A stretch of DNA of 64,000 nucleotides from an uncultured Gammaproteobacteria bacterium (lineage in GTDB: Bacteria > Patescibacteriota > Microgenomatia > Daviesbacterales > UBA10151): contig CAZYBP010000001.1 of the NCBI GenBank assembly GCA_964645555.1, positions 759-64,758 on the forward strand. Direction: 5' to 3'. The position numbers and the translations under genes are program-made. The notes beneath the pieces were generated by a model that had not been told where the DNA came from, did no database searches, and saw only the letters and a list, made by a program, of their open reading frames with translations. This document shows, piece by piece, positions 9,468-36,732 of the stretch (the first letter of the stretch is position 1; every line of letters begins with the position of its first letter).

Positions 9468-10967
9468 ATGAAGAAGTTATTCCCCCTGATTATAATATTT
9501 GTAGTTGTTTTCCTCTTATATTATCAGACTCTTTTTGTTTATTTTTCTCAGGATGATTTCTTTATGTTTAAAATCAGTCAAACTGACAATACATTAGGGG
9601 GATTTTTAAACCTGTTTGCCATACATTCTTTTCCGGAAAGAGGCATTGCGTTTTACAGACCCATCTTCAGAGAAGCCTTGCATAATATCTATTTTTCTGC
9701 CTTTGATTTAAACCATCTCCCTTTTAGGATACTAATGCTGATTGTTCATTTTATTAACATATCTTTGGTCTATTTTTTGGTAAATATTATCTTTGGAAAC
9801 AAAATTCTTGCTACCTTGGCAGCTTTTTTCTTCGGCATTACCGCTGCCAATGTTGCTCTTTTATATTATTTGGCCGGGGGAATAGAGACGGGCGGCGCAA
9901 CAATGTTTGCTCTGTTGACATTGATTTTATATAGAAAATATTTAGTAAATAATAATCCGGCGCTGTATCTGGCAACATTTGTTACCTTTTTAATGGCTAT
10001 TTTTTCTCATGAAATAGTGGGAATGACTGCCGGAGTTATGCTTATAATGCTTATTACATCCAACGTTAAAAAAATCTCAAGCAAAGCAATTGCTCTTTTA
10101 CCATTTCTACTTGCTACGGTTTTTCTTTTTTACATAGATTTAGTCAAGATCGGTCTTTCTTCCGGAGAAAAACAATATCAATTTATTTTCAATATCTCTT
10201 CTGTATTAAATTCCATAGTTTGGTATTCTGTTTGGGCTTTTGGCATCCCTGAAATGCTCATTGATTTTATAGGACCGGGGATAAAACTTAATCCGGTACT
10301 CATGCGCTACTGGGGAAATTATTATACGGTTATCTTTATTGCTTTCGGTATTGCTCTTTCCATCTTCCTTTTCATGTTTTTGTATTTAATACTTAAAAAA
10401 AAGTTTGTGTTTTTTGACCGGCGGTTTTGTTTTTTTCTGCTCTGGCTTATGGTGGGGCTGCTGCCGATAATATTTTTACCAAACCATAAATCCACCCACT
10501 ATTTAGTCTTTGTCCTGCCAGCTTTCTGGACTGTTGTGACTTTCATAGTCTTAAATTTTTACACTAACATGTCAAAATATGCTAAATTTACCGCTAGCAT
10601 ACTGACTGCCCTGGTAATTTTTTCCCTTTTAACCCTATCTGCAGTGTCTATAAAACTAGAAGACACTACATATTGGGCAGCAAGCAGAGGAAGACTGGCA
10701 GAAAGATTAATAAATCAAATCAAAACAACTTATCCTAACTTACCCAAAGAAGCTATTATCTACTTCGAAAATGATCCAAATTATCCCCACCTCACTGCAG
10801 AATGGGGTTCCAGTTCCAAACAGGTAGCTGTTATATTAAACAATCAGGACGCTTTAAGACTTATCTATAATGATTCCAACCTGAGAGTATATTATGAGGA
10901 TCTTGACAAACCAGCGGAAAAGCTTCAAGAGACAAATGTCTATCGAATAAAAGCAAAAATATATTAA
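9468..10967 (+). CDS. Family-B polytopic membrane protein (GT-C-fold, GT39/ArnT-like candidate), 499 aa
   Basis: At least 10 TM helices. Acidic FSQDDFFMF motif in the first extracytoplasmic loop, as in the Dx(D/E) loop-1 motif of GT-C enzymes. Stop overlaps the stop of the convergent gene. Confidence 0.6.
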   Translation: MKKLFPLIIIFVVVFLLYYQTLFVYFSQDDFFMFKISQTDNTLGGFLNLFAIHSFPERGIAFYRPIFREALHNIYFSAFDLNHLPFRILMLIVHFINISLVYFLVNIIFGNKILATLAAFFFGITAANVALLYYLAGGIETGGATMFALLTLILYRKYLVNNNPALYLATFVTFLMAIFSHEIVGMTAGVMLIMLITSNVKKISSKAIALLPFLLATVFLFYIDLVKIGLSSGEKQYQFIFNISSVLNSIVWYSVWAFGIPEMLIDFIGPGIKLNPVLMRYWGNYYTVIFIAFGIALSIFLFMFLYLILKKKFVFFDRRFCFFLLWLMVGLLPIIFLPNHKSTHYLVFVLPAFWTVVTFIVLNFYTNMSKYAKFTASILTALVIFSLLTLSAVSIKLEDTTYWAASRGRLAERLINQIKTTYPNLPKEAIIYFENDPNYPHLTAEWGSSSKQVAVILNNQDALRLIYNDSNLRVYYEDLDKPAEKLQETNVYRIKAKIY

Positions 10968-13900
10968 TTTAGTTGCTTCCGGCGAAATTGTTTACCTAAG
11001 AGTAAAAGTGACAGCAGAAAAAATACAGTTAAACTTATCTTCAAACCTGTATACAAATTATCTTGCGGGGTAAATTTTATCCTGAAAGATAATTCACCGG
11101 TTCTATTAATTAACCATCCATTAGCATATCCATTTGTCAAGTAATGATCTTTTTCAGCAACTTCTCCCATTTTTGGAGAATCCATAATCACTTTCCAGCC
11201 ATTATGGAAGCTTTCATTTAATACTATAAACATATCCTGATTGGGATTATTCACTTGCACTTGGTACTCCACCGGGGAAATTTTTTTAAATTCGGCAGTA
11301 ACAGGACTAAAAGTATTGCCAACTGAGCTACTCAACACGACACTACCATTAAAAGATTCAGCTATACTCAAATCCCTAATTTCCACCTTAGATTGATTAT
11401 CGGTAAATATTTTTATCGTTGGCTTATCTGTGCTTCTGTCTAACCGTACTGAAGCCGTATTATTGGTACTTATTGAGAGGGTTAGATATTTCCAATTAAA
11501 ATCATGTGCATTATCACTAATTTCTTTTCTGAGTTTTGGCACTTTAACACCCGTCAGCTTATCAGAATCCTGCCAAAATTGTATCTGCGGGGGGGGACCT
11601 TGAAGCACTTTATAGTTAAAACTCAAGATATACGTTTTATCAGGATTATAGTCCGAAATTGTGTATTCAGTAATTCCCTCTTTGTTGCTATCAACCTTAT
11701 GAAGCACATTCAAATTGTTTTGTATAGATAAACCTATTTCATGTACCCCCGGAGTTAATTCAATCTCACCTAAAGAAAACCAGTTCTTGCTGTCTTCTTG
11801 CTTTAAAACCATATATTTAGCCGTCCCATCAAGATAAACTTTTATAGTCTTGCCGTCTTCTAGACCGAAATGTTTACTATCAACAGATGTTAAAATAAAC
11901 TCCATCCGTGTATGATTACGGATAAAAAACTGGTATACGTTGATCTTGCTGGAATTTTCTACTTCAGTATCAACAAAAGTATAGTAAACCTCAAGACCGA
12001 TATCTTTTAGAAAAGCTGATATCTTTTCAATATCTTCCTTAATTTTCAAATTAATCTCGTTATTGCCGGCGGCATCTATAAAGCTTGTCAGTTTCTTTTT
12101 TTCTTCATCAAGCACTACCTTTATAATGGACTTAGTTTGCGTATCCAAATCTTCCTCAGATAATTTTTTCAACATCCCAGTTGTTTCATCAAGATAAGCG
12201 GAATATTGTGCAATTGACCGATTAAATTCCTGCTCTTTTTTTGCTTGTCTTAAACGATCTGCTTCAATTATTCTCTTTTGAGTTAGAACAAGCATTTTCA
12301 TAGACTTCTCATAAAAAGGCGTAAAATAAAATTCAATTTTTTCCTTCAGAATTACTGCAGGATAAAATATGGAGTCAGGCAAATATTTTATAAATGGTCG
12401 GGGTATTATTATATCAGGAGGGGTTGAAAAAGATTCCAAAGGAATGACCCTCTGCGGATAAAGAATTTCTTTGTAAAGGATACTTTCATCAATATGCTGG
12501 GTACTAAACTCTTGTAAGAAAATGTTGTTTGTATTGATAACATTACCCATAATATAATCCGTTTGGCTTATATCACGGGGGAGGCCACTACCTGATACCA
12601 ATGATATTCCTCCTGCAATATTGACAGCTGACTTGGTTTCGTCTAAAAATTTGTAAACCTTAAGATGTCCTGTTTCTTTAACAATTGAAAGATCTGAAGA
12701 TGTGTTTAAAAAATGCTCTATCTTCTTTGGATTATCAATTCTTCTTTGGGAATAATCTAAATCTTTATTCAAAACAATATATTTTATTCCCAAATTTTTT
12801 AGAATTGCTTTTTGGGCAATATAGTTTTCTTTATGAAAAGTTCTGGCAATTTCCTCAATAAGCCGGTCAACAAAAGGGATATATAACTGCCTGGAGATGG
12901 ATGCTCCGGGAAATAGATGTGAAGCCAGTTCTACTCCGTTATAAGTATATGTCCAGTTATACGTTGCTGCATCCCCTTCTGAAATTGGCAAAATTAATAT
13001 TTTGCCTGGATTTATTGTAAGCTCCTTCGACAAAAAGGCTGAAACTTCTTTGTAATCTGCAGGCACTGTAAAAAAGGGTGGATATTTATCACTCCCAAAT
13101 AACCTATCTCCAAACATTGGCCAAACATAGACAATCATACCCATTACCAAAATAACCGTAATAATTTTTGGAATTAATGCCTTGAATGGCACATTTAGCT
13201 TTATTTTGAATATCCATAAGTTCCGTACTCCCAATGTTATGAGTATGGATGCTGGCAAAAACACCAGCAAGCCAGTTTTTTCGAAAGGATTTCTGATTGC
13301 ACCTAATAAATAAATATTCGCATAAATCCAGGCTGTGATTTTTCCAAAAGGCTCTGCCGCCCCTTTTGCCATAAATACCCCAAAAAGAAAAAGCGTTATC
13401 ATATACCATACTTTTCCTTCTCTTTTGATAAAACTTAACAGAATAAATAGTACTGAAGTCCAGCTTAAAAGCTGGAAGTACGGACTTAAATATACTTCAC
13501 CCCAATCCTTTTCAAAAAACATTATAAAAGGATTAATCCCTCTGATAACATAATTTATTGTGGATTGTGAGCTTAGAGTAAGAAGGGTATCAACATTCCC
13601 TTTATTTGAAAAAGCCGATACTAAATTTGTAGTACTAAACAAAGGATACAACCACCAAAAATTTGTTAATATCCACAAAACAAAAAGTGTAACAGTTAAA
13701 AAAATATTTCTTGTTATTTTTTTAACTTGTCTGCGGTTTTCAAACACGGAGAAAATAAATATAACCGCCACCGCCAGCCAAATTGCTATAACTGGAGCAA
13801 CTGAGGAGAACATATAACTTGCCAGAAATGATATAACAAGGAACAAGAAAATAAATATCATTCTTCCTTTCTCCAAAAGCTTGATATAAAAGAATACAAA

Positions 13901-14386
13901 ATAAGGCAACGATGCCGAGAGGATAAAATTGGCATAAATAAATCTATGCCAAACAATCATCATAAAAGGATTGAATATATAAAATAACCCAGCCAAAAGC
14001 TGCAATCTACCACCATAAGGAATAATTTGCTTACAAAGCAGGCTTACCCCCAAGCCTTGTAAGTAAATTATGATAAAAAATATGACCTTTTGGATCCCGA
14101 TTGCACCAAAACCTAAACGTTCTAAAATACTCATAAAGTAGTAGAAAGGTATTGATGCGGCAACTGTGGGAATTGAAGTACCGGGGCCTAATGCTTCCCA
14201 CCACAACCATCTAATCTGTTCCAATATTTTTCCCGGGGCGTAAGTCGGAATACCTACCTCAGTTCCTCCAAACAATATATTCTTAGTAAACCAAAGTTGC
14301 ACTAATAAAAAAGCAATCAATAAGAAAAAAACTCTTGGATCCAGTAAAATATCTTTTACTTTTTCCAGAGTTTTCATTTTTTCCAT
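10964..14386 (-). CDS. Family-A large polytopic membrane protein (GT-C-like candidate), 1140 aa, with central coiled-coil insert
   Basis: Carries RNPFEKTG, and the C-terminal YANGWLINRTGE motif followed by a TM anchor. Roughly 100 aa of charged helical sequence (EADRLRQAKKEQEF...) sits between the TM domain and the beta-rich ectodomain. Confidence 0.7.
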   Translation of the reverse strand: MEKMKTLEKVKDILLDPRVFFLLIAFLLVQLWFTKNILFGGTEVGIPTYAPGKILEQIRWLWWEALGPGTSIPTVAASIPFYYFMSILERLGFGAIGIQKVIFFIIIYLQGLGVSLLCKQIIPYGGRLQLLAGLFYIFNPFMMIVWHRFIYANFILSASLPYFVFFYIKLLEKGRMIFIFLFLVISFLASYMFSSVAPVIAIWLAVAVIFIFSVFENRRQVKKITRNIFLTVTLFVLWILTNFWWLYPLFSTTNLVSAFSNKGNVDTLLTLSSQSTINYVIRGINPFIMFFEKDWGEVYLSPYFQLLSWTSVLFILLSFIKREGKVWYMITLFLFGVFMAKGAAEPFGKITAWIYANIYLLGAIRNPFEKTGLLVFLPASILITLGVRNLWIFKIKLNVPFKALIPKIITVILVMGMIVYVWPMFGDRLFGSDKYPPFFTVPADYKEVSAFLSKELTINPGKILILPISEGDAATYNWTYTYNGVELASHLFPGASISRQLYIPFVDRLIEEIARTFHKENYIAQKAILKNLGIKYIVLNKDLDYSQRRIDNPKKIEHFLNTSSDLSIVKETGHLKVYKFLDETKSAVNIAGGISLVSGSGLPRDISQTDYIMGNVINTNNIFLQEFSTQHIDESILYKEILYPQRVIPLESFSTPPDIIIPRPFIKYLPDSIFYPAVILKEKIEFYFTPFYEKSMKMLVLTQKRIIEADRLRQAKKEQEFNRSIAQYSAYLDETTGMLKKLSEEDLDTQTKSIIKVVLDEEKKKLTSFIDAAGNNEINLKIKEDIEKISAFLKDIGLEVYYTFVDTEVENSSKINVYQFFIRNHTRMEFILTSVDSKHFGLEDGKTIKVYLDGTAKYMVLKQEDSKNWFSLGEIELTPGVHEIGLSIQNNLNVLHKVDSNKEGITEYTISDYNPDKTYILSFNYKVLQGPPPQIQFWQDSDKLTGVKVPKLRKEISDNAHDFNWKYLTLSISTNNTASVRLDRSTDKPTIKIFTDNQSKVEIRDLSIAESFNGSVVLSSSVGNTFSPVTAEFKKISPVEYQVQVNNPNQDMFIVLNESFHNGWKVIMDSPKMGEVAEKDHYLTNGYANGWLINRTGELSFRIKFTPQDNLYTGLKISLTVFFLLSLLLLGKQFRRKQLN

Positions 14387-15003
14387 TTGATTGCTATTAC
14401 TTGGGCAGCTATATTGGGATTTATATTAGCAACCGGATTCATCAGAAACGAAATAAAATATAACGGCAGCTGTATTAGCTTAATTTCATTACCTGCATGT
14501 GAGTGGCTGCCGTAGACAAGTTTCAACCCTGTGCCAAATACCCGGAAACCCTTTCCTTTAAAATCTTTGGGTAGCCAGGCGGATAAGTGACGTTGATATT
14601 TATTTGCATCATATTCCTCCTGCAAACAATCACCGTTTGGTGTAGTAAGAAGTATCAATGTTTTAGCAATTCTTTCCATCTCTTTTATTAACAAGAAGCC
14701 ATCCTTTTTATCAAGATGCTCTACTGTTTGTAAAGACACAACCATATCAAAACTTTTGTCATCAAAGGGGAGTTTTTTTATCAAATCCACTTTCATAACT
14801 TTTTTATATTTTCCGCCACTTTTACAAATTTTAAGATAGGGTTGGAAGATATCGGCGCCTGTTATCTGATATTTGCCTTCATTATTGACCAAATCTCCAA
14901 ACGCCCCTTTGCCGCACCCCAAATCCAATATGGTATTAATTTTAAATTTCTTAATATTTCTTTTGATCAACCAAGGGTATGTGAAAGGTAAATTATCAAT
15001 CAT
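14374..15003 (-). CDS. Class I SAM-dependent methyltransferase
   Basis: Motif I ILDLGCGKGAFG, 209 aa. Confidence 0.75.
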   Translation of the reverse strand: MIDNLPFTYPWLIKRNIKKFKINTILDLGCGKGAFGDLVNNEGKYQITGADIFQPYLKICKSGGKYKKVMKVDLIKKLPFDDKSFDMVVSLQTVEHLDKKDGFLLIKEMERIAKTLILLTTPNGDCLQEEYDANKYQRHLSAWLPKDFKGKGFRVFGTGLKLVYGSHSHAGNEIKLIQLPLYFISFLMNPVANINPNIAAQVIAIKWKK

Positions 15004-16019
15004 TTGGTTCTTATAAACGAGTCAAAAGAATTTACGATGGCTTTATCATAAAGTAACTTCGTTATCATTTCCTTCCCTGCCTTTTTGGCTTTGCTCTGCA
15101 CTTTTTTGCGCTTTCCGAAAATATCATTTAGATGCAAAGCTACCCAAAGCAGTGAGGTAAATCTTGTTAAACCTAAGTTTATTTTTCTTTTAATAATTAT
15201 CTCCCATAGTCCTGCAGTAAAATAAATAAAAATAGTAACTGGAAGATTTTTCAACAAAAATGGAACAGGATAATTTTTTATCAAAGTTATAATTCTGTTT
15301 TTATTAAAGTGCCATCTGACTTTAATCCTCACCATATCGGATAAATCAGTCGCACCCCGTCTGTGGAAAGCGGAAACTTTAGGAAAATAAACCACTCTAA
15401 ACCCCTGGCTCCAAGCCCGCAGAGCCAAATCAAGATCTTCATATCCGATTCCAAAATCCTCATCAAATAAACCAACTGATTCAACTGATGCTTTTCTAAG
15501 AATTGAGCATGACCCGCTGACCGATAAAACTTCTTTCTCTGCATTAAAATTATCAGCACTCATTCCTGCTCCAATGGTAATTGGGGTTCCAAAAGGATCT
15601 ATCGTCTCCCCCGCACTATCAATAATTTGATGATCAAAGTAGGAAAGTAGTTTGCCTTGTGATAAAGCAATATCTTTATTATTGTCTAAAAACTTGATAA
15701 ATTCCTGGAAATACCCGTTTTCTACCACTACATCATTATTGAAAAAAGCAATATATTCACCGGTTGAATTTTTTATGCCCAAGTTTAATCCTTGGCTATA
15801 CATATTAACGGGATTTTTAATTATTTTTAGTTTTGGAAATTTTTTCCCGGCAACTTCAACACTTTCATCAGTTGAGGCATTATCAACTAAAATAACCTCA
15901 AGATTAGGGTAATTGTTTTTAAATATCGAAGAAACCGCCTCTGTCAGCAGATTTAACTTAAGCCCGTTATAATTTGATATCACAACCGTTACTTTCGGCC
16001 ATTTTTTAACTTTTTTCAT
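15000..16019 (-). CDS. Glycosyltransferase family 2
   Basis: VTVVISNYNG...ILVDNASTDES followed by NNDV, a classic GT2 signature. Confidence 0.8.
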   Translation of the reverse strand: MKKVKKWPKVTVVISNYNGLKLNLLTEAVSSIFKNNYPNLEVILVDNASTDESVEVAGKKFPKLKIIKNPVNMYSQGLNLGIKNSTGEYIAFFNNDVVVENGYFQEFIKFLDNNKDIALSQGKLLSYFDHQIIDSAGETIDPFGTPITIGAGMSADNFNAEKEVLSVSGSCSILRKASVESVGLFDEDFGIGYEDLDLALRAWSQGFRVVYFPKVSAFHRRGATDLSDMVRIKVRWHFNKNRIITLIKNYPVPFLLKNLPVTIFIYFTAGLWEIIIKRKINLGLTRFTSLLWVALHLNDIFGKRKKVQSKAKKAGKEMITKLLYDKAIVNSFDSFIRTK

Positions 16020-17214
16020 TTTTAATCTCTCCTAACTTTTTTATAAACTGGTCAGTCCTATTTTCCCAGTTCCATTCAGATCCAATTAAAGCAATTGCCT
16101 GATTAGATAATTTATTATAAAGGGACTGATTAGTCAAAAGCCGTATAATTTCCGCGGCAAAATCTTCTAAATTCCCCACTCTTACTTTTAACATACCTTG
16201 TGGATAATAACTCTTCAGGGAAGATAAATCAAAACTCACACCCGGCAATCCGAAAGCCATGGCTTCAGCAGCCGCCATACCGCCGGAATCATAAAATGCA
16301 GGATGCAAAACTATTTTACTTTTGGAAAAAATATTGTATTTCTCCGGCCCGTCGAAAACATAACCTAATAGCTTAACATTATCACCTAAATCTAAACGGT
16401 CAATTTTTGCCTGCACATCTTTCATTAACGGCCCATCACCAATCATGGCCAGTTTCGCCTCAGGTAACTTCTTCGTCACCAACTTCCAAATTTCGATTAA
16501 TTCTACTACTCCTTTTTGCGGATGGAATCTGCCCTGAAAAACTGCGTCGTAATTTTTAGGTTTATTTGTACCATTTTCACGAATCCATTTTTTTATCTTT
16601 GAAACATTAACTGCCCCAAGCAAAATCAAGACCTTATTTTGTTTATTTAATTTTGGAAATTGATTTCTTTCCTCCTCGTTGTTAATAAGAACAAAATCAG
16701 CAAATTTTTCAATCAGGGGTTTTACCGGCAGTTGCATCAAATAGTAGCAAAGGGCAGAAAGACGGTAAGTTGTCTGCCTTTTTCCGTTAGTAAAACCCAA
16801 GATAGGATTCGGTGCTGTTTGAAACCAGGCAGCTGCCCAAATCGCTTTAGGAAAACGGAGTTTAAGAATAAATGCCGGTACAGAATCCATCCAGAACTCC
16901 GAGGCAGAATATAAAACCGTGTTATCTGAATTTTCCATTTTTACAGTCAGTGCAATCCTTATCCCCTCAACTATCCGGGCAAGATAGTTAACAAAAAAAC
17001 CGAAGTGCTTCCAAGGATACATACCTGACACACGGTAGTTAATACTCAATCCCTCAAGCATTTGGCTTTTGCACATTCTTAGTCCGTCCTCCCAAAGATA
17101 AATTGCAATCTGATAACCTCTGCTTTGTAGGTTCCTGGCAAGCTCAATAAAAATCCTGTCACTTCCTGAAAGCCCTTTACCTAAAGCCGCCATTGCTATA
17201 ATATAAAACTTCAT
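16006..17214 (-). CDS. Glycosyltransferase family 4 (GT-B fold)
   Basis: C-terminal ...SGGMAAAEAMAFGLPGVSFD..., the E-x7-E / GLP region typical of GT4. Confidence 0.75.
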   Translation of the reverse strand: MKFYIIAMAALGKGLSGSDRIFIELARNLQSRGYQIAIYLWEDGLRMCKSQMLEGLSINYRVSGMYPWKHFGFFVNYLARIVEGIRIALTVKMENSDNTVLYSASEFWMDSVPAFILKLRFPKAIWAAAWFQTAPNPILGFTNGKRQTTYRLSALCYYLMQLPVKPLIEKFADFVLINNEEERNQFPKLNKQNKVLILLGAVNVSKIKKWIRENGTNKPKNYDAVFQGRFHPQKGVVELIEIWKLVTKKLPEAKLAMIGDGPLMKDVQAKIDRLDLGDNVKLLGYVFDGPEKYNIFSKSKIVLHPAFYDSGGMAAAEAMAFGLPGVSFDLSSLKSYYPQGMLKVRVGNLEDFAAEIIRLLTNQSLYNKLSNQAIALIGSEWNWENRTDQFIKKLGEIKNEKS

Positions 17215-17232
17215 ATAAGGTTGATTATACTT

Positions 17233-19038
17233 ATGAAGCTATCGTTAAAACAACTGCTCTGGATTGTAATTGGCATTCCTCTGGTTTCTTATCTACTGTT
17301 AAAACCTACGTTCAATTTGTCTTTATTTGGTGATGATTGGGAGCAGCTTTATTTTATGTGGCTGGAATTTGAATCCAGACATTCCTTTAGCTGGTTTGAC
17401 ATTAAATCTTATCTAGGACCATATAACTTTTCTTATTCTTATTTGGGGATAATAAATAATTTCTTTGGTCTAAATTCCGCAGCTTATTTTTATGCTTCAT
17501 TTCTTTTTAGGGTTCTATCAATAATCTCGGTATATTTTCTGGTTAATTTTCTGACCAAAGAAAAATTAGCCCCCTTTTTAGCTTCGCTAATATTTATTTT
17601 CTCTGCCGCAGGCTTAGAAACCACCAACTGGGTATTCAATATGAATACCTATATGGCCATATTTTTGTTTAATCTTAGCGTAATATTTTATTTAAAATTC
17701 CGATTAAAGCCAAAAATAAATCTGCCGGACCTCGCTTGGTTTATCCTTCTTTTTGCAGCTGCACTCTTTGTAGCCTCAACCAGGATGCATGGAGCAGCCC
17801 CTTTCATAATATTGATCGATTTGATCCTAATATTCCTGTTTGAAAAGAACAAACCAAGCTTAATTTCATATTCGAGATTAATCATTCCCCCGCTTGTACT
17901 TTTGACTCTGATATATTACGGAGCCTTCGGTCATATTGGAGCCGGCGGGTTTACAGACCGTCTCAAGCTGGGAATGGAAACTGCATTAGCTCTTTTGTCA
18001 AAAGGACAATACTTATTTTTATTTTTTCTTCCGGGTATTATCGGCCATATCAGTTTACCGGATTCTTTAACCCTAAACTATAAAACATCTACCTATTTAA
18101 TTGTTGCTATCTTTTCTTTATCTGCTTTATTGTCACTTATTATATGGTTCATTGTAAGCATTGTTAAATTTGAAAAAGCGCAAAAAGATTTAGGCTTGCA
18201 AAGTTTCTTTGGAGTTACATTTATTTGGGCAATTCTGGTATATATAGTCTCTGTATCAAACACTATTATCCCTATCGGCCAATTTTTCTCAATTTTTGTT
18301 GGGGGCGAAATTCTTTTTCTAATTTTTTGGTTATTTTTCTTTCTTAAACATAAGTTCCCCCTGGTTTCTTTTACCTGCATTTTTTCACTACTATATCTTT
18401 TGGCTTTTACCTTAATTTATTGGTTATTCAGTCCGGCGGTTTTTTCTGAAACTACCAGCAGGTATTTAACAATGGGCGGAGTGGGATTTGCTATTTTCTT
18501 TGGTGTATTTTTAAGTTTCCTATTTAAAACACTTCCCTCTGGATTGCAGGTATTACCTATTACATTTTTGTCAATCTGGCTTTTTGTTAATTTTTGGGCC
18601 GGCAGGGAATATTGGATGTTTATGGAAACAAACCGGAACTCCCAATTGGCAAAATCTATTTGGAATTCCTTAACAGCAGATATTAAAGATCTTGATATAG
18701 AAAACCCGACGGTATTTTTTCTGACAGCCGACAACCCCTCTCTGCTCTATTGGAACGTTGACTTTGGTTTTCCCTCCCATATGGGTTTGACTTATAAAAT
18801 ACCTGATTTAAATAACACTCCTGTTTCCACATCGGATTATTCAACATTACTTGAATACGCAAAAGACGGCTCACCCCTTAAAAAAATCCACGGCAGGCCG
18901 GTTAAAGAAATTCCCTTAGATCATATTTATGCATATCATTTAACTCAGGATAAATTTGTTTCTCAAACTGATTTAGTCAGAAAGAAGCTCAAGGAAGATT
19001 TGGACAAAATTACTTCACAACCAAAAGCCGGTTATTAA
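17233..19038 (+). CDS. Family-B polytopic membrane protein (GT-C-fold candidate)
   Basis: LFGDDWEQLYFMW motif after TM1 and more than 12 TM helices. The ORF track starts at TTG 17221; the ATG at 17233 (MKLSLKQLL) is more plausible. The 3' end overlaps the convergent carbamoyltransferase by 29 nt. Confidence 0.6.
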   Translation: MKLSLKQLLWIVIGIPLVSYLLLKPTFNLSLFGDDWEQLYFMWLEFESRHSFSWFDIKSYLGPYNFSYSYLGIINNFFGLNSAAYFYASFLFRVLSIISVYFLVNFLTKEKLAPFLASLIFIFSAAGLETTNWVFNMNTYMAIFLFNLSVIFYLKFRLKPKINLPDLAWFILLFAAALFVASTRMHGAAPFIILIDLILIFLFEKNKPSLISYSRLIIPPLVLLTLIYYGAFGHIGAGGFTDRLKLGMETALALLSKGQYLFLFFLPGIIGHISLPDSLTLNYKTSTYLIVAIFSLSALLSLIIWFIVSIVKFEKAQKDLGLQSFFGVTFIWAILVYIVSVSNTIIPIGQFFSIFVGGEILFLIFWLFFFLKHKFPLVSFTCIFSLLYLLAFTLIYWLFSPAVFSETTSRYLTMGGVGFAIFFGVFLSFLFKTLPSGLQVLPITFLSIWLFVNFWAGREYWMFMETNRNSQLAKSIWNSLTADIKDLDIENPTVFFLTADNPSLLYWNVDFGFPSHMGLTYKIPDLNNTPVSTSDYSTLLEYAKDGSPLKKIHGRPVKEIPLDHIYAYHLTQDKFVSQTDLVRKKLKEDLDKITSQPKAGY

Positions 19039-20710
19039 AAACCAGCACATCCATCTTAGTCCGCAAATAACAATCAATTGCCTCCTGCGGGGTACAGACA
19101 ATCGGCTCATTTTCATTAAATGAAGTATTGAGCAAAACAGGAACACCGCTAAGCTTCTCAAAACTTTTAAGCAGTGAGTATATATGCGGTGAAATATTCC
19201 GTCTGACAGTCTGAATTCTGGCAGTTCCGTCCGCATGTGTTATGCTGGGCAAAAGTTTTGGATCCTTAACCCTTGCGACTATCGTCATAAATGGACTCTC
19301 GTCAAGAATATCAAAATACTTATTTGCATCCTCGTAGGTCACCATCGGTGCAAACGGACGGAAAAACTCCCTTTTTTTAATCCTCGAGTTAAGTATATCT
19401 TTAATGTCACCTCTACGGGCATCCGCCAAGATCGACCTATGTCCCAAAGCCCGCGGTCCAATCTCCATCCCGCCGTCAAAGTAGCCAACAATTTTACCCT
19501 CAAACAGTAACTTTGCCAAAGCAGATGATTGGTCATTGCTAACATCAGCAACCAGTCCTGACTCAGACAAAGCTTTTTCACATTCTTCCATTGTAAACTT
19601 AGGTCCGAAATCAACCCTGTCAAGGATAAATTCGCGTTTTCCACCAAGTTCCTGATGATGTACTGTTAATGCTGCCCCTAAACTGCAACCCCCGTCATAA
19701 GCCACAGGCGGGACATAAATTTTTTTAAACTTTCCTTTCTCAAGCAATATGGTATTCATGAGGACGTTTTGAGCAACACCACCGGCAATACAAAGATTTG
19801 TACTGCCGGTAGAATCATATAGATAAGTGCCCAGATTTAAAGCAATCTCTTCGAGTCTTTTTTGAGCTGAACAGGCAATATCAAAATGTTTTTGTTTATA
19901 TTTTGTACCGTACTCACGTGCCGGACCTAAAGCTTTTGCTAATTTTTGCGAAAAATGCTTTCCTACTCCTTGTGAATATAAACTAATATAATCAACATTC
20001 AGTTTATAAAATGGACTGCCATCATTTTTGAGAATATCTTCAAATATTTTCTGATACCGGTTATGACCATAGGCTGCCATTCCCATCACTTTATACTCAT
20101 CATTAAGCGGTCTGAACCCCAAATATTGAGTGATTGCTCCGTAAAACACCCCCAAAGAGTCATAATAAGGCAGCGAAGTCAATTTTGTAATACTGTTACC
20201 CCGGCCTTTAAATAGAGTAGTTGCCGTATCTTCCCCAAAACCGTCTACTACTAAAATTGCAGCGTCATTAAATTTACTGACCCAGTAAGTACTATAGGCG
20301 TGAGCTGTGTGATGGGCTACATACCTAACAGGCGGTACTTTACCGGTAAAATACTTACGGAAGACTCTTGTCAGATTTGCCATTTGTAGTTTTGTAGCCA
20401 GAGGTGTATAGCTGGCACCTTTTTTAAGAAGGTTTAAACTGGTGGGCAATTGTCTAATAGCAGACAAAAGTTGCATTTTAAGAAACTCCCATGGAAGCCA
20501 GCAGTAAGCAATATAATCAACTTCACTTAAGTTTATCCCAGCACTGTTAAGACAAAAATTAATTGCATTTACAGGGAACGCGTAGGTGTGTTTTTGGCGG
20601 GTAAAACGTTCTTCCTCTGCCATGGCAATTAATTTGCCATTCTTTAAAATACAGGCAGAGGAATCATGGAAATAACAATTAATACCCAATATATATTTTG
20701 ACTTGCTCAT
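19010..20710 (-). CDS. Carbamoyltransferase (NodU/CmcH/NovN/TobZ family)
   Basis: N-terminal ILGINCYFHDSSACILKNGKLIAMAEEERFTRQKH is the hallmark start of NodU-type O-carbamoyltransferases. 566 aa fits the family size. Confidence 0.85.
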   Translation of the reverse strand: MSKSKYILGINCYFHDSSACILKNGKLIAMAEEERFTRQKHTYAFPVNAINFCLNSAGINLSEVDYIAYCWLPWEFLKMQLLSAIRQLPTSLNLLKKGASYTPLATKLQMANLTRVFRKYFTGKVPPVRYVAHHTAHAYSTYWVSKFNDAAILVVDGFGEDTATTLFKGRGNSITKLTSLPYYDSLGVFYGAITQYLGFRPLNDEYKVMGMAAYGHNRYQKIFEDILKNDGSPFYKLNVDYISLYSQGVGKHFSQKLAKALGPAREYGTKYKQKHFDIACSAQKRLEEIALNLGTYLYDSTGSTNLCIAGGVAQNVLMNTILLEKGKFKKIYVPPVAYDGGCSLGAALTVHHQELGGKREFILDRVDFGPKFTMEECEKALSESGLVADVSNDQSSALAKLLFEGKIVGYFDGGMEIGPRALGHRSILADARRGDIKDILNSRIKKREFFRPFAPMVTYEDANKYFDILDESPFMTIVARVKDPKLLPSITHADGTARIQTVRRNISPHIYSLLKSFEKLSGVPVLLNTSFNENEPIVCTPQEAIDCYLRTKMDVLVFNNRLLVVK

Positions 20711-20786
20711 TTAAATTAAGGTAAACATTAACAAAAAACTTAAAAAAAGTATAGACTTTAAATAATACTCATTATATGATGATCTC

Positions 20787-22541
20787 ATGTCCAAAGGTTT
20801 GATTCAAAGTTTACTTCTTTGCTCCATTATAATAGTTATCAGTCTCTTTACACTTTATCCTTCCTTTAAACTTGCTTTGTTTGGAGACGATTGGCAGCAA
20901 ATCTTTCATTATTTTCTTTATCTTGGGCCAAAGAGCAGCGTTTTCGATCATTTAACTTATTTTGTAGGGGGCTATGGGGCTTTTGGAGTTATTACAGGAA
21001 TATCTTACCTGGCTTTTGGCCATGATTATAAAATGTATTATATATTTTCATATATATATAAGTTACTTTCTGCCTTTGCAATTTTTCCCCTTGCTTTTTA
21101 CTTAACCCGTTCAAAACTTGCAGCCTTTTATGCTTCACTATTTTTATCTGTCACCATCATCGGGCTTGAGAGTACTAATTGGGTAGTCAATTCCCCCGCT
21201 TACCTGGCTGTTGCCAACCTATCGTTATTTCTGTATTTTTTTCTAAAGTCCAGGGAAAATTTAAAACCACTCTATTTTATTGGGGCGGCAATATTTTTTT
21301 ACCTTGCCCATATTTTTGCCCCCGTCAGAATGACCGGTCTGCTGCCGTTTACAATAATTTTGGAGATATTTCTATACATTAAATCTCTCAATATTAAATT
21401 ATCGTTTATACGCTTGGTCATTCTATTTGTTGTATTTGCAATCATTACTGTTACGGGAGCATCTGCAGGCAGAACTGATACATTAGCCGGACAAGCATCA
21501 AAAACACTATTTTCCGGGTTTAGCCAAATTGCTGCTGCATTAGACAAAGGCCGCACAGACTTTTTATTTTATCCGGTCATGACTGTTGGCCGTATTGTTG
21601 TACCGGATACCACAGCTATTAAAATATTTCCCATGCTGATTTATCTGATTGTATTTATGGCAGTTTTTTATGCAAATGCCAACAAAAGTAAAAAAGTAAT
21701 TGCCGGTATAGCAGTGGGGATAGCCGTTTGGTCACTAATCAGTATGCTGATTTATGAATCCAATAAACTCACGTTATCAGCCCGCGATGCTTTATCCCTG
21801 GCTATTGGAGGATATTTTTTAACAACTGCCATTATATTATTGTTTTTTTTAAAAAAGCATTTGCTTTTTTACTCTGTATTTATAGCCAGCTTTTGGTCCG
21901 TATTTTCATTTATATTCCCTTGGATTAGAGCACCGGAGACGCTGAACCCGACTGAACATAGATACTTAGTTGCTTCATCGGTTGGTGTTGCAATTTTCTT
22001 TGCCAGTATTATCGGGCTGGGTAAGCAGTTAAAAAACCGTGTTTATCTTTTTTTGGTAGTAATACCGTTTTTATTAATAAATATTTTGGCCACCCGGAGT
22101 TTTCTTACCGACGCTGTCCAAAATAGCCATGGCAGTGAGGCAATAAATAAAATTTGGCCGCAATTTCCCCGTATTGCTGAAATTGGTAAAACGGAAAAAC
22201 CATTAATGTTCTTCTTCACCTCTTCTCCTGAAAAAGAAAAATTAAAACATCATTCTCTGACATTCGGTTTTCCTTTCAGAATGGCCTTTATCTATAATAT
22301 CGACAATTACTGGAAAATGCCTATTGCTACCAACAGCTGGGAAGATATCGTCTCGGCAGTTTCGGACGGACAATCTTTATTTATGAACAATTTCCCCAAA
22401 GATCCTATCCCTGTTGAAAATATTTATGCATTCTACCTTACTTCTGATAACAATTTATTAAATATAACAGAAGCGACAAGAGAAAAATTAAAGGATTTTC
22501 TTAAACAAAACCCAGAGAGTAATAATCAGACCGGAAATTAG
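20787..22541 (+). CDS. Family-B polytopic membrane protein (GT-C-fold candidate)
   Basis: LFGDDWQQIFHYFLYLGP motif, many TM helices. 3' end overlaps the convergent family-A gene by 54 nt. Confidence 0.6.
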   Translation: MSKGLIQSLLLCSIIIVISLFTLYPSFKLALFGDDWQQIFHYFLYLGPKSSVFDHLTYFVGGYGAFGVITGISYLAFGHDYKMYYIFSYIYKLLSAFAIFPLAFYLTRSKLAAFYASLFLSVTIIGLESTNWVVNSPAYLAVANLSLFLYFFLKSRENLKPLYFIGAAIFFYLAHIFAPVRMTGLLPFTIILEIFLYIKSLNIKLSFIRLVILFVVFAIITVTGASAGRTDTLAGQASKTLFSGFSQIAAALDKGRTDFLFYPVMTVGRIVVPDTTAIKIFPMLIYLIVFMAVFYANANKSKKVIAGIAVGIAVWSLISMLIYESNKLTLSARDALSLAIGGYFLTTAIILLFFLKKHLLFYSVFIASFWSVFSFIFPWIRAPETLNPTEHRYLVASSVGVAIFFASIIGLGKQLKNRVYLFLVVIPFLLINILATRSFLTDAVQNSHGSEAINKIWPQFPRIAEIGKTEKPLMFFFTSSPEKEKLKHHSLTFGFPFRMAFIYNIDNYWKMPIATNSWEDIVSAVSDGQSLFMNNFPKDPIPVENIYAFYLTSDNNLLNITEATREKLKDFLKQNPESNNQTGN

Positions 22542-25316
22542 TGCAAATTGCGATATTAAACTATCTTTGTCTAAATCATTTTGCAGACTATATTCCAAAT
22601 TCAAGTCAAAATCTCCTAGTCTGTCGATTAACCAACCGTTAGCAAAAGAGTTGGTCAGGAAATGTTTCTCAACTTTAGTCCCGTCCGGATAACTCAATTG
22701 CCAGCCACTGTTAAAAATAGAGGAGAAAACAACCACAAACGGATTTAAGGAATTTTCAATACGGATGTTGTATCTTGACGGGCTGATTTTGTCATAAGAA
22801 AGATTAGGTGTTTTATTAATTCTATCTTCTAATTTATTGATTAAAACTAAATCCGGTAGCATTAGTTCTCTTACGTTCATATTTTTAACCTTTAAGTTGT
22901 CTAAGTCAGGCCAAAAGTATATATTTAGCGCACTGGCTGTTGAGCGTGCTTCAAACAAATCATTAAACGACTCAAAACGATCTAAAGTGGTAGTTGTTAA
23001 ATCTTTCATATGATACGGACGAATCTTACCTTTTTCTTTTTGATCATTATCAAAAGAAATAACTAACTTTTTTTCTTGTAGTGTCGAATAATCAAAGGAA
23101 ACCAAATATTTTGAGAAAGGATTGATATTTAAGACAGTAAAACTGTTTTTATCATCAGATAAGGTTGTAAGATTACCTGAATACGAAATATTTATTATTA
23201 CTGTGTGTAATCCTTCTGTTAAGTTGAGTTCGCCATAAGACCACCTGCCGTCTTCTCTTAAAACCGGATTTCCTTGTAGCCTGACACCATCAACTAAAAT
23301 ATCTCCAGGTTCCGATAACTTATCCGAAATTAACTCATATTTGCCGCTATTTTTAATATCAAATTTGTAGTAACCGGGTTTGCGCTCCGGATTTTTCAAA
23401 TCATCAGGATGGATAACCCTTAAGTTAACCAGGTCGTCAAGATAGGATATATTTGAAATAGCAGTTCCGGCTGAAGAAGCCTCAGAAAAAGTAAAGTCTT
23501 TTAATTGAACCGTTGGCGATACATCCATTAAATTACCTGTTACATACAGGCTCTTGTCGGTCCAAAATGGGTTTTCCCAAAATTCAAGTTTGCCGAAAGA
23601 TAAGGTTTTTACCAATTCTCCTTTCTTACTTTTGTCCATGGCGATTTTTTGTATTGTTTGAGGATCCCTCATTTTTCTCTCGTAAATATCTACATCGGAT
23701 CTGATTAGTAGATATTTAGCGTTTAAAACATTCATAACCTCATAAAATTTGGGCTTACTGACAAATAACTCTTCCAGTTGATCAGCAACTTTGTCAAAAT
23801 ATAAAATAGTGGTAGAAGACATAATATGCGGAGTATCGAATAGCCACATTGATGTTTCTATTCCTTGGTAGCCTTTTTCCCAATTATAGGTTACCCCTTG
23901 TCCGCTGAAAGGAAAACCGATAAATCTAAAATTATTACCCTGGAACTTGAGCCAATTGTTGGCCTGCTCATAATACTGCGGCACTTTTACCTTATACCCT
24001 ACCGAATAATTGTCTGTCGGCGGGAAAAAACCGGTAAAAACAAGGCCTGACCAAAAGGGATAGCCGTATAAAGCAACTATAATGAATAAAGTGGCTGTAT
24101 AAACTGCTAAATGTAGCTTCTTTTGAAATTTTGACAATAAACCTTCAAGCCCCGCAGCCAATAAGGGTACTGCAGCAAGTAAGGTTATAAAACCAAATTT
24201 TTCAAATGGATTTCTAAAAAATTGCAGAGGAGAAATATTAATAAATAAAAATTGAAATAATTCTCCAAAGGGGGGATTATTTCCTTTGGCAAAGTATAGG
24301 CTTAGAAAAAACAATACGGCCAAAGCTAAAACATTAATATTTTTTCGGGCTTGAAATATAAAAATCAAGATAACTGCGGAAACTAAAAATTCTATTACTA
24401 CCGCTGCCGGCATGGAAAATAACTTCGGCCATTCAATTTGCGGAGTGGTGAAGAATGGCCCATGAAATAATCTAAAAAGGTATGTTAAATCCCCTAATGT
24501 TTTACTTGAGGCGGTCAGCGTCGATAGGCTTACATCGAATTGGAAAAAGGAAGATAATTCTTCAGAATATTTACCTATAAAAAGACTCCTTACAACCTGA
24601 CCAATCCACCATAAATTGACTAAAGAAAAATAAATTAAATTTATAGCAATAAAGCTTAGAGAAAATATTCTTTCCTTGGTTGTCTTAACTGTGATAAATT
24701 TAAATAAGGTAAAGTAAGTAAAAATAAACCATAAAATTATATTAAAGACAGGGTTTGATAATCCTAAAGAAAAAACAGCACAAGTTATCCCCACTACGGA
24801 AACATAATAAAAATTCTGTTTCTGTAAACCTTTGATATAAAAAGCGGAAACCAGAGGCAGAAGTGCCCAAAAAGCTATGTAATTATATAGAAATCGATTC
24901 CAAATATTAACTAAAGAGATAGAATTAAACCAATAAAATATAACTGCTACTACCAAATACTTCCTGCCAATGTGGGGAAAAAATTCCCGGGTAAATAAAG
25001 TAATTCCAACTCCGGATACTACAAGAAAAAACCAAAAAAGTCCGGCTTCAATTATATAATTGGCTACGCCAATTTTCTCAAGTAAAGAAAGCGCAAAAAA
25101 AGTAGGGGAGTATGCAGTCACAATACCGTTGGCAAATCCCAATCCGGAATTTGTGTCGGACCAGGCGCCCTTAACCTGACTATGAAATCTGGATAAATTA
25201 TAAAAGCTAATCTGGCTTTCGGCAGTACCTAATAATAAACCATCTTTAAACCAAGTAAATACCAAAATTGAACTGGCAATGGCTAAAACAGCTAAAAGTA
25301 GAAGGATGCTCCGCAT
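22488..25316 (-). CDS. Family-A large polytopic membrane protein (GT-C-like candidate), 942 aa
   Basis: Carries RNPFEKFGF, and the C-terminal FANGWLIDRLGDF motif with a TM anchor. Serves as the intact reference paralog. Confidence 0.7.
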   Translation of the reverse strand: MRSILLLLAVLAIASSILVFTWFKDGLLLGTAESQISFYNLSRFHSQVKGAWSDTNSGLGFANGIVTAYSPTFFALSLLEKIGVANYIIEAGLFWFFLVVSGVGITLFTREFFPHIGRKYLVVAVIFYWFNSISLVNIWNRFLYNYIAFWALLPLVSAFYIKGLQKQNFYYVSVVGITCAVFSLGLSNPVFNIILWFIFTYFTLFKFITVKTTKERIFSLSFIAINLIYFSLVNLWWIGQVVRSLFIGKYSEELSSFFQFDVSLSTLTASSKTLGDLTYLFRLFHGPFFTTPQIEWPKLFSMPAAVVIEFLVSAVILIFIFQARKNINVLALAVLFFLSLYFAKGNNPPFGELFQFLFINISPLQFFRNPFEKFGFITLLAAVPLLAAGLEGLLSKFQKKLHLAVYTATLFIIVALYGYPFWSGLVFTGFFPPTDNYSVGYKVKVPQYYEQANNWLKFQGNNFRFIGFPFSGQGVTYNWEKGYQGIETSMWLFDTPHIMSSTTILYFDKVADQLEELFVSKPKFYEVMNVLNAKYLLIRSDVDIYERKMRDPQTIQKIAMDKSKKGELVKTLSFGKLEFWENPFWTDKSLYVTGNLMDVSPTVQLKDFTFSEASSAGTAISNISYLDDLVNLRVIHPDDLKNPERKPGYYKFDIKNSGKYELISDKLSEPGDILVDGVRLQGNPVLREDGRWSYGELNLTEGLHTVIINISYSGNLTTLSDDKNSFTVLNINPFSKYLVSFDYSTLQEKKLVISFDNDQKEKGKIRPYHMKDLTTTTLDRFESFNDLFEARSTASALNIYFWPDLDNLKVKNMNVRELMLPDLVLINKLEDRINKTPNLSYDKISPSRYNIRIENSLNPFVVVFSSIFNSGWQLSYPDGTKVEKHFLTNSFANGWLIDRLGDFDLNLEYSLQNDLDKDSLISQFALISGLIITLWVLFKKIL

Positions 25317-34344: not shown

Positions 34345-34379
34345 AAATGGTATTATACATTAACAATAGAGGATATAAT

Positions 34380-36716: not shown

Positions 36717-36732
36717 TGATAGTATATATAAA

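What the first reader, a model, noticed from the sequence alone, without database searches (positions are those of the whole stretch)
19010..20710. NodU/CmcH-type carbamoyltransferase wedged convergently between two family-B membrane genes, with overlapping 3' ends
This is an unmistakable carbamoyltransferase (ILGINCYFHDSSACIL...AEEERFTRQKH). Carbamoylated glycans are rare outside Nod factors, antibiotics and a few O-antigens and capsules. Its 3' end overlaps the 3' end of 17233..19038 by 29 nt on the opposite strand, leaving no room for terminators. Convergent transcription or antisense interference may therefore couple its expression to the membrane GT.
Basis: partly seen in the sequence, partly recalled or inferred. 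Interest (0 to 1): 0.5.

Follow-up and report, generated by a model that had tools for sequence, protein, structure and literature searches.

The report
Ordinary sugar carbamoyltransferase; incidental gene overlap
This is a standard, already-annotated carbamoyl-adding enzyme gene in a large cell-surface sugar-polymer gene island of an uncultured Daviesbacteria bacterium, and its 29-base overlap with the neighbouring gene looks like a by-product of a very tightly packed genome, not a regulatory device.

Summary

An identical protein is already in NCBI as "carbamoyltransferase [Candidatus Daviesbacteria bacterium]", and the family is abundant across many phyla.

The overlap is not special:
- All nine convergent junctions in this ~98% coding window either overlap or lie 19 nt or less apart.
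- The overlapped part of the membrane gene is a non-conserved 9-residue tail, missing from orthologs that do not abut the carbamoyltransferase.
- Related contigs show the two genes convergent, divergent, co-directional or kilobases apart.
- In one relative the carbamoyltransferase directly heads the GT4-GT2-methyltransferase-GT-C gene string. In the window, the membrane gene B1 sits antisense inside that string.

Most likely function: ATP- and carbamoyl-phosphate-dependent O-carbamoylation of a sugar in a heavily decorated surface glycan. Low interest.

The parts
19010..20710 (-). Class III O-carbamoyltransferase (CT), 566 aa, soluble (0 predicted TM). Kae1-like N domain plus YrdC-like C domain.
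   Evidence: Pfam PF02543 at 1.7e-59 and PF16861 at 2.7e-63. PDB matches: NovN 1.7e-96, GdmN 2.7e-88, TobZ 1e-83. H15, H133, H137, D156 and D339 are conserved. 100% identical to the NCBI protein 'carbamoyltransferase [Ca. Daviesbacteria]'.
19010..19038 (.). 29-nt convergent overlap. It covers the CT's conserved last codons (FNNRLLVVK*) on the - strand and the non-conserved tail ...ITSQPKAGY* of B1 on the + strand.
   Evidence: B1 orthologs that are not next to a CT end 8-10 residues earlier. The same 29-nt overlap occurs in L006.
17233..19038 (+). Family-B membrane protein B1 (601 aa from the ATG; the TTG at 17221 is an alternative start). About 12 TM segments and a GT-C-type fold by paralogy. 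It lies antisense between the CT and the GT4-GT2-MT-GT-C gene string.
   Evidence: No Pfam or NCBIfam hit. Paralog of B2, E 2e-50. N-terminal alignment with orthologs favours the ATG at 17233. L087 lacks this gene between the CT and GT1.
20787..22541 (+). Family-B membrane protein B2 (584 aa), GT-C fold, transcribed divergently from the CT.
20711..20786 (.). 76-nt divergent intergenic spacer between the CT and B2. It is the only non-coding DNA near the CT and the presumed site of both promoters (inferred).
   Evidence: Only weak sigma-70-like matches, not above the shuffle expectation.
10964..17214 (-). Translationally coupled string: GT4 (16006..17214), GT2 (15000..16019), methyltransferase (14374..15003) and AftD-like GT-C (10964..14386). 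In relative L087 this string directly follows the CT, 16 nt after its stop.
   Evidence: Pfam. The window genes overlap by 14, 4 and 13 nt. L087 orthologs are 68%, 79%, 68% and 59% identical, in the same order, immediately downstream of the CT.
22488..25316 (-). AftD-like GT-C (942 aa) whose 3' end overlaps the 3' end of B2 by 54 nt.
   Evidence: Pfam GT-C_AftD at 1.2e-09. The overlap is not conserved: a 4-nt overlap in L006 and a 1-nt gap in L087. The B2 tail is 10-15 residues longer than in orthologs.

Best explanation
The gene encodes a soluble cytoplasmic class III (TobZ/NodU/CmcH/NovN-type) O-carbamoyltransferase.

Mechanism, by homology: its YrdC-like C-terminal domain makes carbamoyl-AMP from carbamoyl phosphate and ATP. 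Its Kae1-like N-terminal domain, with an iron centre and a general-base histidine, transfers the carbamoyl group to a hydroxyl.

Acceptor, inferred from context: most likely a sugar hydroxyl on a cytoplasmic intermediate (nucleotide sugar, polyprenyl-phosphate sugar or lipid-linked oligosaccharide) of a heavily decorated cell-surface glycan of a Candidatus Daviesbacteria (CPR/Patescibacteria) bacterium. The enzyme acts as an optional tailoring step alongside the many methyltransferases in the same 64-kb island.

The overlap: the 29-nt 3' overlap with B1 is a passive result of extreme gene packing. The B1 reading frame runs into the antisense of the CT's conserved last codons until it meets the first stop. 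The overlap is not a selected regulatory element.
For: Shown:
- Two-domain architecture.
- Best solved relatives are NovN, GdmN, TobZ and 7xb6, over the full length.
- H15 aligns with the GdmN general base H27. H133, H137, D156 and D339 align with the GdmN Fe ligands H133, H137, D156 and D333. All are invariant or nearly invariant in 29 homologs.
- The YrdC-like motifs GPRALGxRSIL, KKREFFRPFAP, THADGTARIQ and LLNTSFN are conserved.
- No TM segment.

Context: the whole window is glycan genes, including many GT2, three GT4, about eight methyltransferases, a Wzx-like flippase, AftD-like GT-Cs, sugar dehydrogenases and epimerases, and AsnB. Seven related CT loci are all glycan clusters.

The overlap is incidental:
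- All nine convergent junctions in the window are separated by 19 nt or less or overlap, and the window is ~98% coding. The same holds in related contigs.
- The overlapped tail of B1 is absent from six orthologs that are not next to a CT.
- The arrangement varies among relatives.
- There is no significant or conserved RNA structure and there are no flanking repeats.
Against: - The acceptor is not identified. Class III enzymes also carbamoylate non-sugar hydroxyls, such as the GdmN ansamycin C7-OH and phage 5hmC. Homology at roughly 40% identity to all characterised members cannot assign a substrate.
- No carbamoyl phosphate source (carbamoyl phosphate synthetase or carbamate kinase) is encoded in the window, and the rest of the genome could not be examined.
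- No transcript data exist, so some antisense effect of the overlap or of read-through cannot be ruled out.
- The 29-nt overlap is retained in L006, whose CT is 75% identical. That fits inheritance plus constraint on the CT's C-terminal codons, but it is also what a selected feature would look like.
Confidence: 0.75

Rival explanations
1. The convergent overlap, or more broadly the antisense placement of B1 inside the CT-GT4-GT2-MT-GT-C string, is a functional transcriptional-interference or antisense switch (excludon-like). Read-through from the CT promoter would produce RNA antisense to all of B1. B1 transcription would collide with CT and operon transcription. The cell would then express either B1 or the downstream glycosylation genes.
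For: - In L087 the CT is followed 16 nt later by orthologs of GT4, GT2, MT and GT-C on the same strand. In the window, B1 (1.8 kb, opposite strand) occupies exactly that gap.
- The start codons of GT4 and B1 are only 6-18 nt apart, so the GT4 promoter must lie inside B1 or upstream of it.
- No terminator separates the CT from B1.
- The 29-nt overlap is retained in L006.
Against: - Tight or overlapping convergent and divergent junctions occur at every strand switch in the window: convergent -54 to +19 nt, divergent down to 2 nt. The feature is genome-wide, not specific to this pair.
- The arrangement is not conserved. B1 orthologs lie 4-7 kb from the CT in L088 and L003 and are divergent from it in L091.
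- The overlapped B1 codons are a dispensable tail.
- There are no transcript data.
Confidence: 0.1
2. The CT is functionally tied to the family-B GT-C enzymes in an Arn/Gtr-like three-step route. A GT2 makes a polyprenyl-phosphate sugar. The CT O-carbamoylates it on the cytoplasmic face. After flipping, the family-B GT-C transfers the carbamoyl-sugar onto a surface glycan or protein.
For: - In all six distinct CT-containing Daviesbacteria loci (window/L001, L006, L003, L087, L088, L091) a family-B gene (B1- or B2-type) lies within one gene of the CT. The orientation is convergent, divergent or co-directional.
- Family B has a GT-C fold with a conserved GDD after TM1.
- Some family-B relatives are fused to an N-terminal GT2 domain. 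That pairing is typical of a polyprenyl-phosphate-sugar synthase with the GT-C that uses its product.
Against: - B2-type genes occur without any CT nearby in L093 and L094, so the GT-C does not need the CT.
- More distant CT homologs (57-58% identity; L089, L090) have no family-B neighbour.
- All positive loci come from one narrow lineage, so shared ancestry could explain the adjacency.
- No biochemical precedent for carbamoylation of a polyprenyl-phosphate sugar was found here.
Confidence: 0.2
3. The CT tailors a secreted small molecule, such as an aminoglycoside-, macrolide- or Nod-factor-like compound, and not a cell-surface glycan. This would match its closest characterised relatives NovN, GdmN and TobZ.
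For: - The best solved matches are antibiotic-tailoring enzymes.
- The island holds a strong TylF-family O-methyltransferase (2.9e-97), a sugar C-methyltransferase and an FdtA-like isomerase, which are types also found in antibiotic deoxysugar pathways.
Against: - No PKS, NRPS, aminoglycoside-core or NodC-type genes were seen.
- Instead there are about ten large polytopic GT-C-type membrane proteins, a Wzx-like flippase and many GT2 and GT4 genes, which is the signature of surface polysaccharide or glycoconjugate assembly.
- The NodU equivalog model scores 160 bits against a cut-off of 1000.
- CPR bacteria have very small genomes (own knowledge).
Confidence: 0.05

Closest known systems
TobZ (tobramycin 6''-O-carbamoyltransferase, PDB 3VEN) and class III carbamoyltransferases generally (NodU, NolO, CmcH)
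   Same: - Same length class (about 570 aa) and the same Kae1-like plus YrdC-like two-domain architecture.
- Full-length match at E 1e-83.
- Conserved catalytic His and Fe-binding H-H-D-D.
- By inference, the same two-step chemistry through carbamoyl-AMP.
   Different: - Acceptor unknown.
- The context is a surface-glycan island, not an aminoglycoside cluster.
- Only distant identity.
- Fails the NodU equivalog cut-off (160 vs 1000 bits).
NovN (PDB 9S2T) and GdmN (PDB 7VYJ)
   Same: The best-scoring solved relatives, at E 1.7e-96 and 2.7e-88. Active-site residues align one-to-one, and the GdmN numbering H133, H137 and D156 coincides.
   Different: NovN and GdmN are about 680 aa and carry an extra C-terminal dimerisation domain (GdmN D574-L674). 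The 566-aa window protein lacks it. They tailor antibiotics.
WapO (PA5005), the putative LPS-core heptose 7-O-carbamoyltransferase of Pseudomonas
   Same: A carbamoyltransferase-family gene embedded among glycosyltransferase genes, decorating a cell-envelope glycan (PMC8005017). This is the closest functional analogy.
   Different: WapO acts in a Gram-negative LPS core pathway. No sequence comparison with WapO was made here, and Daviesbacteria are not known to make LPS (own knowledge).
GT-C superfamily membrane glycosyltransferases (STT3/AglB/PglB, PMT, ArnT, AftA/B/D), as a reference for the flanking family-B genes
   Same: - About 12 TM helices.
- A conserved acidic GDD motif right after TM1.
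- GT2 fusions in relatives.
   Different: No Pfam or NCBIfam model matches. Sequence identity to solved GT-Cs is 7-12%. Donor and acceptor are unknown.

Membership tests
Class III O-carbamoyltransferase (NodU/CmcH/TobZ; Pfam PF02543 + PF16861) | N-terminal Kae1/ASKHA-like domain followed by a C-terminal YrdC-like domain in one polypeptide | tested here: met
   PF02543 covers residues 7-348 (202.5 bits, cut-off 24). PF16861 covers residues 399-563 (213 bits, cut-off 27).
Class III O-carbamoyltransferase (NodU/CmcH/TobZ; Pfam PF02543 + PF16861) | General-base His plus the His-His-Asp-Asp iron site in the Kae1-like domain | tested here: met
   H15, H133, H137, D156 and D339 align with GdmN H27, H133, H137, D156 and D333. 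They are invariant or at least 90% conserved in 29 homologs.
Class III O-carbamoyltransferase (NodU/CmcH/TobZ; Pfam PF02543 + PF16861) | YrdC-like domain motifs for carbamoyl phosphate/ATP binding and carbamoyl-AMP formation | tested here: inconclusive
   The motifs GPRALGHRSIL, KKREFFRPFAP, THADGTARIQ and LLNTSFN align identically or nearly so with NovN, GdmN and 7xb6 and are invariant among homologs. Residue-by-residue mapping onto the TobZ ligand-contact residues was not obtained.
Class III O-carbamoyltransferase (NodU/CmcH/TobZ; Pfam PF02543 + PF16861) | ATP- and carbamoyl-phosphate-dependent O-carbamoylation activity | not testable with these tools
   Needs an enzyme assay.
NodU proper (NCBIfam NF041651 equivalog) | Score above the equivalog cut-off | tested here: not met
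   160.1 bits against a cut-off of 1000. No nod gene context.
HypF (class II carbamoyltransferase) | Match to TIGR00143 and the four-domain architecture | tested here: not met
   17.6 bits against a cut-off of 466.1, over about 40 residues only. Pfam found only the two class III domains plus a sub-threshold TsaD match, and no additional domain.
TsaD/Kae1 t6A synthase | Score above the Pfam or TIGRFAM cut-offs | tested here: not met
   PF00814 scores 24.6 against 24.8. TIGR03723 scores 18.1 against 296. The resemblance reflects only the shared ASKHA fold.
GT-C fold glycosyltransferase (flanking family B) | Multi-pass GT-C membrane fold | tested here: met
   [not shown]
GT-C fold glycosyltransferase (flanking family B) | Conserved acidic motif in the first extracytoplasmic loop | tested here: inconclusive
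   G33-D34 are invariant and D35 is at least 90% conserved directly after TM1 in 36 sequences. Its topology and structural equivalence to the catalytic Asp of known GT-Cs were not checked by superposition.
GT-C fold glycosyltransferase (flanking family B) | Transfer from a polyprenyl-phosphate-linked sugar donor | not testable with these tools
   Only indirect support: five ~880-aa relatives carry an N-terminal GT2 domain.
Selected regulatory convergent overlap (antisense or excludon-like) | The overlap or arrangement is conserved across relatives beyond what neighbour constraint explains | tested here: not met
   Found only in the window/L001/L002 and L006. Absent from L087, L088, L003 and L091. 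The overlapped B1 tail is non-conserved.
Selected regulatory convergent overlap (antisense or excludon-like) | Overlapping transcripts with reciprocal expression | not testable with these tools
   Needs strand-specific RNA-seq or 3'-end mapping.

The most novel reading that the evidence does not exclude
B1 is an antisense-embedded GT-C gene inside what in a close relative is a contiguous CT-GT4-GT2-MT-GT-C string. With no terminators and start codons 6-18 nt apart, this could form an excludon-like transcriptional-interference switch. The switch would make a CPR bacterium alternate between two surface-glycan decoration states, with the carbamoyltransferase transcript acting as the antisense RNA.
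Probability: 0.08. Interest if true: 0.5.

Novelty: new member of a known kind. Interest (0 to 1): 0.2.

Why it matters
There is little novelty in the enzyme. It is a textbook class III carbamoyltransferase, and the identical protein is already deposited and named.

The modest value lies in the context. Daviesbacteria (CPR) carry very large, rapidly rearranging surface-glycan islands, with carbamoylation as an optional decoration. The island also holds at least two GT-C-like membrane protein families without any Pfam model. Because CPR bacteria are thought to live attached to or dependent on other cells, their surface glycans may matter for host recognition, but this locus does not make that question newly testable.

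The analysis also gives a practical caution. In genomes this compact, overlapping convergent 3' ends are the default and should not be read as regulatory.

Tried and rejected
- **Exact-product look-up.** The look-up with the window ORF found nothing. The same sequence queried as P0001 worked.
- **Terminator in the overlap.** One hairpin lies at 19046..19027(-). I rejected it because the site count is at chance (4 vs 5.6 expected), the fold z-score is -1.4, and it is not conserved in L006. Its U-tract also ends before the CT stop codon, so termination there would yield a non-stop mRNA.
- **Invertible or mobile B1 cassette.** No meaningful direct or inverted repeats flank B1. The best pair is 19 nt at 79%.
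- **tRNA and Rfam elements.** None anywhere in the window.
- **Genome-contig scan for close relatives.** That was useful for breadth but not for synteny, so synteny came from the look-up of encoding contigs.
- **Identity of PDB 7XB6/8HIU.** No paper found.
- **Literature on Daviesbacteria glycans or a CPR carbamoyl phosphate supply.** Nothing specific found.
- **Sigma-70 promoter scan.** 27 sites against 23.2 +/- 5 expected, so uninformative.
- **Phage 5hmC carbamoyltransferase reading.** Rejected. Those enzymes co-occur with thymidylate-synthase-like, dCMP deaminase and phosphoribosyl-ATP pyrophosphohydrolase genes, and none was seen in the window.
Full report

Yes. ORF 19010..20710 on the minus strand encodes 566 aa beginning MSKSKYILGINCYFHDSSACIL. 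The plus-strand ORF ends with TAA at 19036-19038. The minus-strand ORF ends with the complement of 19010-19012. The two coding regions therefore share 19010..19038, which is 29 nt.

Both ends are set by stop codons, so no start-codon choice can remove the overlap. The same junction is present in two independent public assemblies (L001 and L002). The window is 99.84% identical to L001.

The two flanking membrane genes, B1 (17233..19038) and B2 (20787..22541), are paralogs: 30% identity, E 2e-50, about 12 TM segments each.

**2. Source organism and prior annotation**

The protein is 100% identical to an NCBI entry named "carbamoyltransferase [Candidatus Daviesbacteria bacterium]" from MAG GCA_016187055.1. 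The window is about 35% GC and about 98% coding, with no tRNA or Rfam hit.

**3. What the enzyme is**

Pfam gives the two diagnostic domains, Carbam_trans_N (1.7e-59) and Carbam_trans_C (2.7e-63). The best solved relatives are all full-length matches:
- NovN: 1.7e-96
- GdmN: 2.7e-88
- TobZ: 1e-83
- an unnamed carbamoyltransferase, 7xb6: 1.3e-81

Other families are excluded:
- HypF scores 17.6 bits against a cut-off of 466.
- TsaD falls below its cut-offs.
- The NodU equivalog model scores 160 against 1000.

So this is a class III carbamoyltransferase. It is not HypF-like, and it is not an ortholog of NodU.

The GdmN structural paper defines the class III mechanism (PMC9633730). The YrdC-like domain makes carbamoyl-AMP from carbamoyl phosphate and ATP. 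The Kae1-like domain transfers the carbamoyl group, using an iron bound by H133, H137, D156 and D333 and the general base H27.

In the window protein these residues align to H133, H137, D156, D339 and H15. They are invariant or at least 90% conserved in 29 homologs. The YrdC-like motifs are likewise conserved. The protein has no predicted TM segment.

The chemistry is inferred by homology, not shown.

**4. Context**

Every annotatable gene in the 64-kb window belongs to glycan synthesis or decoration:
- about a dozen GT2 genes and three GT4 genes
- about eight SAM methyltransferases, including a strong TylF-type (2.9e-97) and a sugar C-methyltransferase
- UDP-sugar dehydrogenase, epimerases and dehydratases
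- UDP-GlcNAc 2-epimerase
- an AsnB-type amidotransferase
- nucleotidyltransferases
- a Wzx-like flippase
- about ten large polytopic membrane proteins in at least three paralogous families

No PKS/NRPS, nod, or phage DNA-modification genes were seen. No carbamoyl phosphate synthetase or carbamate kinase is present either.

**5. The flanking family B**

Neither paralog hits any Pfam or NCBIfam model, and their homologs carry none.

A profile search finds 1,187 cluster representatives at E<=1e-3 (286 at E<=1e-30). Five ~880-aa members carry an N-terminal GT2 domain, and one carries an epimerase domain.

Donor and acceptor remain unknown.

**6. Is the overlap special?**

No. In the window, the nine convergent junctions measure -4, -29, -54, +19, -10, -4, -4, +10 and -8 nt. 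Divergent start codons can be as close as 2-6 nt. Related Daviesbacteria contigs show the same pattern: convergent junctions of -29, -26, -11, -4 (four cases), 0, +1, +2, +3 and +9 nt, with a single +40. Lack of room for intrinsic terminators is a property of the genome, not of this gene pair.

In a rough mechanical-ORF survey of CT homologs from other phyla, 19 of 68 loci had a convergent ORF downstream. Eight of those ORFs overlapped the CT end (the ORFs were not verified).

The literature reports that overlaps affect about 17% of prokaryotic gene pairs. It also reports that only the convergent orientation tolerates long overlaps, which typically arise by 3' extension (PMC2478687).

**7. How the overlap arose**

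The CT's last residues (FNNxLLVxK) are conserved throughout the family. B1 orthologs that are not adjacent to a CT (P0173-P0177, P0179) end at ...KKDLQ(EP). Only the window B1 and the L006 B1 carry an extra tail, ITSQPKAGY and ATSQPTVGY respectively. That tail is the antisense reading of the CT's terminal codons up to the TAA that lies antisense to the conserved Phe-Asn codons.

The overlap is therefore a non-conserved 3' extension of B1 into a constrained neighbour. The 54-nt overlap between B2 and the GT-C gene is similar. The B2 tail is 10-15 residues longer than in orthologs, and that junction is a 4-nt overlap in L006 and a 1-nt gap in L087.

The single terminator-like hairpin in the overlap is at chance level and is not conserved. 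No repeats flank B1.

**8. Synteny**

| Locus | CT identity | Arrangement around the CT |
|---|---|---|
| L087 | 77% | GT-C -> <- B2, then CT -> GT4 -> GT2 -> MT -> GT-C. GT4 starts 16 nt after the CT stop. No B1. |
| L006 | 75% | Same 29-nt CT/B1 overlap as the window |
| L088 | 67% | B2-type gene co-directional after the CT; B1 ortholog 4 kb away |
| L003 | 73% | B2 divergent from the CT; B1-like gene 7 kb away |
| L091 | 79% | B1-type gene divergent from the CT, in the position B2 holds in the window; a second, distant CT nearby |

In L087 the downstream genes are 68%, 79%, 68% and 59% identical to the window's GT4, GT2, MT and GT-C. In the window, B1 lies on the opposite strand exactly between the CT and GT4. 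The real "wedge" is therefore B1 sitting antisense inside a CT-led gene string, not the CT sitting between two membrane genes.

B2-type genes also occur with no CT nearby (L093, L094). CT homologs at 57-58% identity sit in different sugar-modification clusters without family B (L089, L090).

Two conclusions follow:
- Within this lineage the CT always lies within one gene of a family-B GT-C, in any orientation. That hints at a functional link, but one confined to a narrow clade.
- The CT is an optional module, and the convergent arrangement is evolutionarily labile.

**9. Rivals**

- **Excludon-like interference switch created by the antisense-embedded B1.** It cannot be excluded without RNA data, but it has no positive support beyond the geometry (confidence 0.1).
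- **Arn/Gtr-like route (GT2 -> polyprenyl-phosphate sugar -> CT -> flip -> family-B GT-C).** It is attractive given the adjacency and the GT2 fusions, but it is speculative (confidence 0.2).
- **Small-molecule tailoring role.** Unlikely given the gene content (confidence 0.05).

**10. Verdict**

The overlap is a by-product of genome compaction. Interest is low (0.2).

The uncharacterised GT-C-like families and the shuffling architecture of this CPR glycan island are the more noteworthy by-products of the analysis.

Noticed in passing
window 28806-28808 (genes 27828..28793 and 28806..29930, - strand): A single G->T difference from the near-identical public contig L001 (GGA Gly -> TGA) splits a 700-aa AftD-like GT-C gene into two ORFs. 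This could be a strain-specific nonsense mutation or pseudogene, or a sequencing error.
   Followed up: partly
window 22488-22541: B2 (20787..22541, +) and the AftD-like GT-C gene (22488..25316, -) overlap convergently by 54 nt, the longest convergent overlap in the window. It is not conserved in relatives: a 4-nt overlap in L006 and a 1-nt gap in L087. It corresponds to a longer, non-conserved B2 tail.
   Followed up: yes
window 17214-17233 and 34344-34347: Divergently transcribed genes have start codons only 6-18 nt apart (GT4/B1) and 2 nt apart (UDP-GlcNAc 2-epimerase/789-aa membrane protein). Their promoters must therefore lie inside the neighbouring coding sequence, or the genes are transcribed from further upstream.
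   Followed up: no
window 34347..36716 (+) and 53137..55452 (+): A third paralogous family of large polytopic membrane proteins (789 and 771 aa, 44% identical, 12-13 predicted TM segments) with no Pfam hit. They are possibly further GT-C-like enzymes or polymerases.
   Followed up: no
window 3679..6378, 6603..9272, 9468..10967: Three more large membrane proteins without Pfam hits. 3679..6378 is 36% identical to the AftD-like 22488..25316, 6603..9272 is weakly related to both, and 9468..10967 (499 aa, about 9 TM segments) has no relative in the window.
   Followed up: partly
P0274, P0314, P0316, P0318, P0321, P0351 (relatives of family B): Some family-B proteins are fused to an N-terminal GT2 domain (five representatives of ~880-900 aa), and one to an NAD-dependent epimerase domain. 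This suggests family B uses a polyprenyl-phosphate sugar made by a GT2.
   Followed up: partly
L091 1106..2863 (-): The closest non-identical relative locus carries a second carbamoyltransferase (585 aa, only 29% identical to the window CT). It is divergent from the AftD-like GT-C gene, so some Daviesbacteria glycan islands encode two distinct carbamoyltransferases.
   Followed up: no
window 36574..38151 (+) vs 34347..36716 (+): A 143-nt co-directional overlap with a TTG start. This is probably an over-extended start call for the GMC/FAD oxidoreductase-like ORF and not a real overlap.
   Followed up: no
window 10964..14386 (-), residues about 669-757: The 1140-aa AftD-like GT-C carries a DUF5667 domain (4.5e-07) in its extracytoplasmic part. 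A stand-alone DUF5667 protein also occurs in related locus L094.
   Followed up: no
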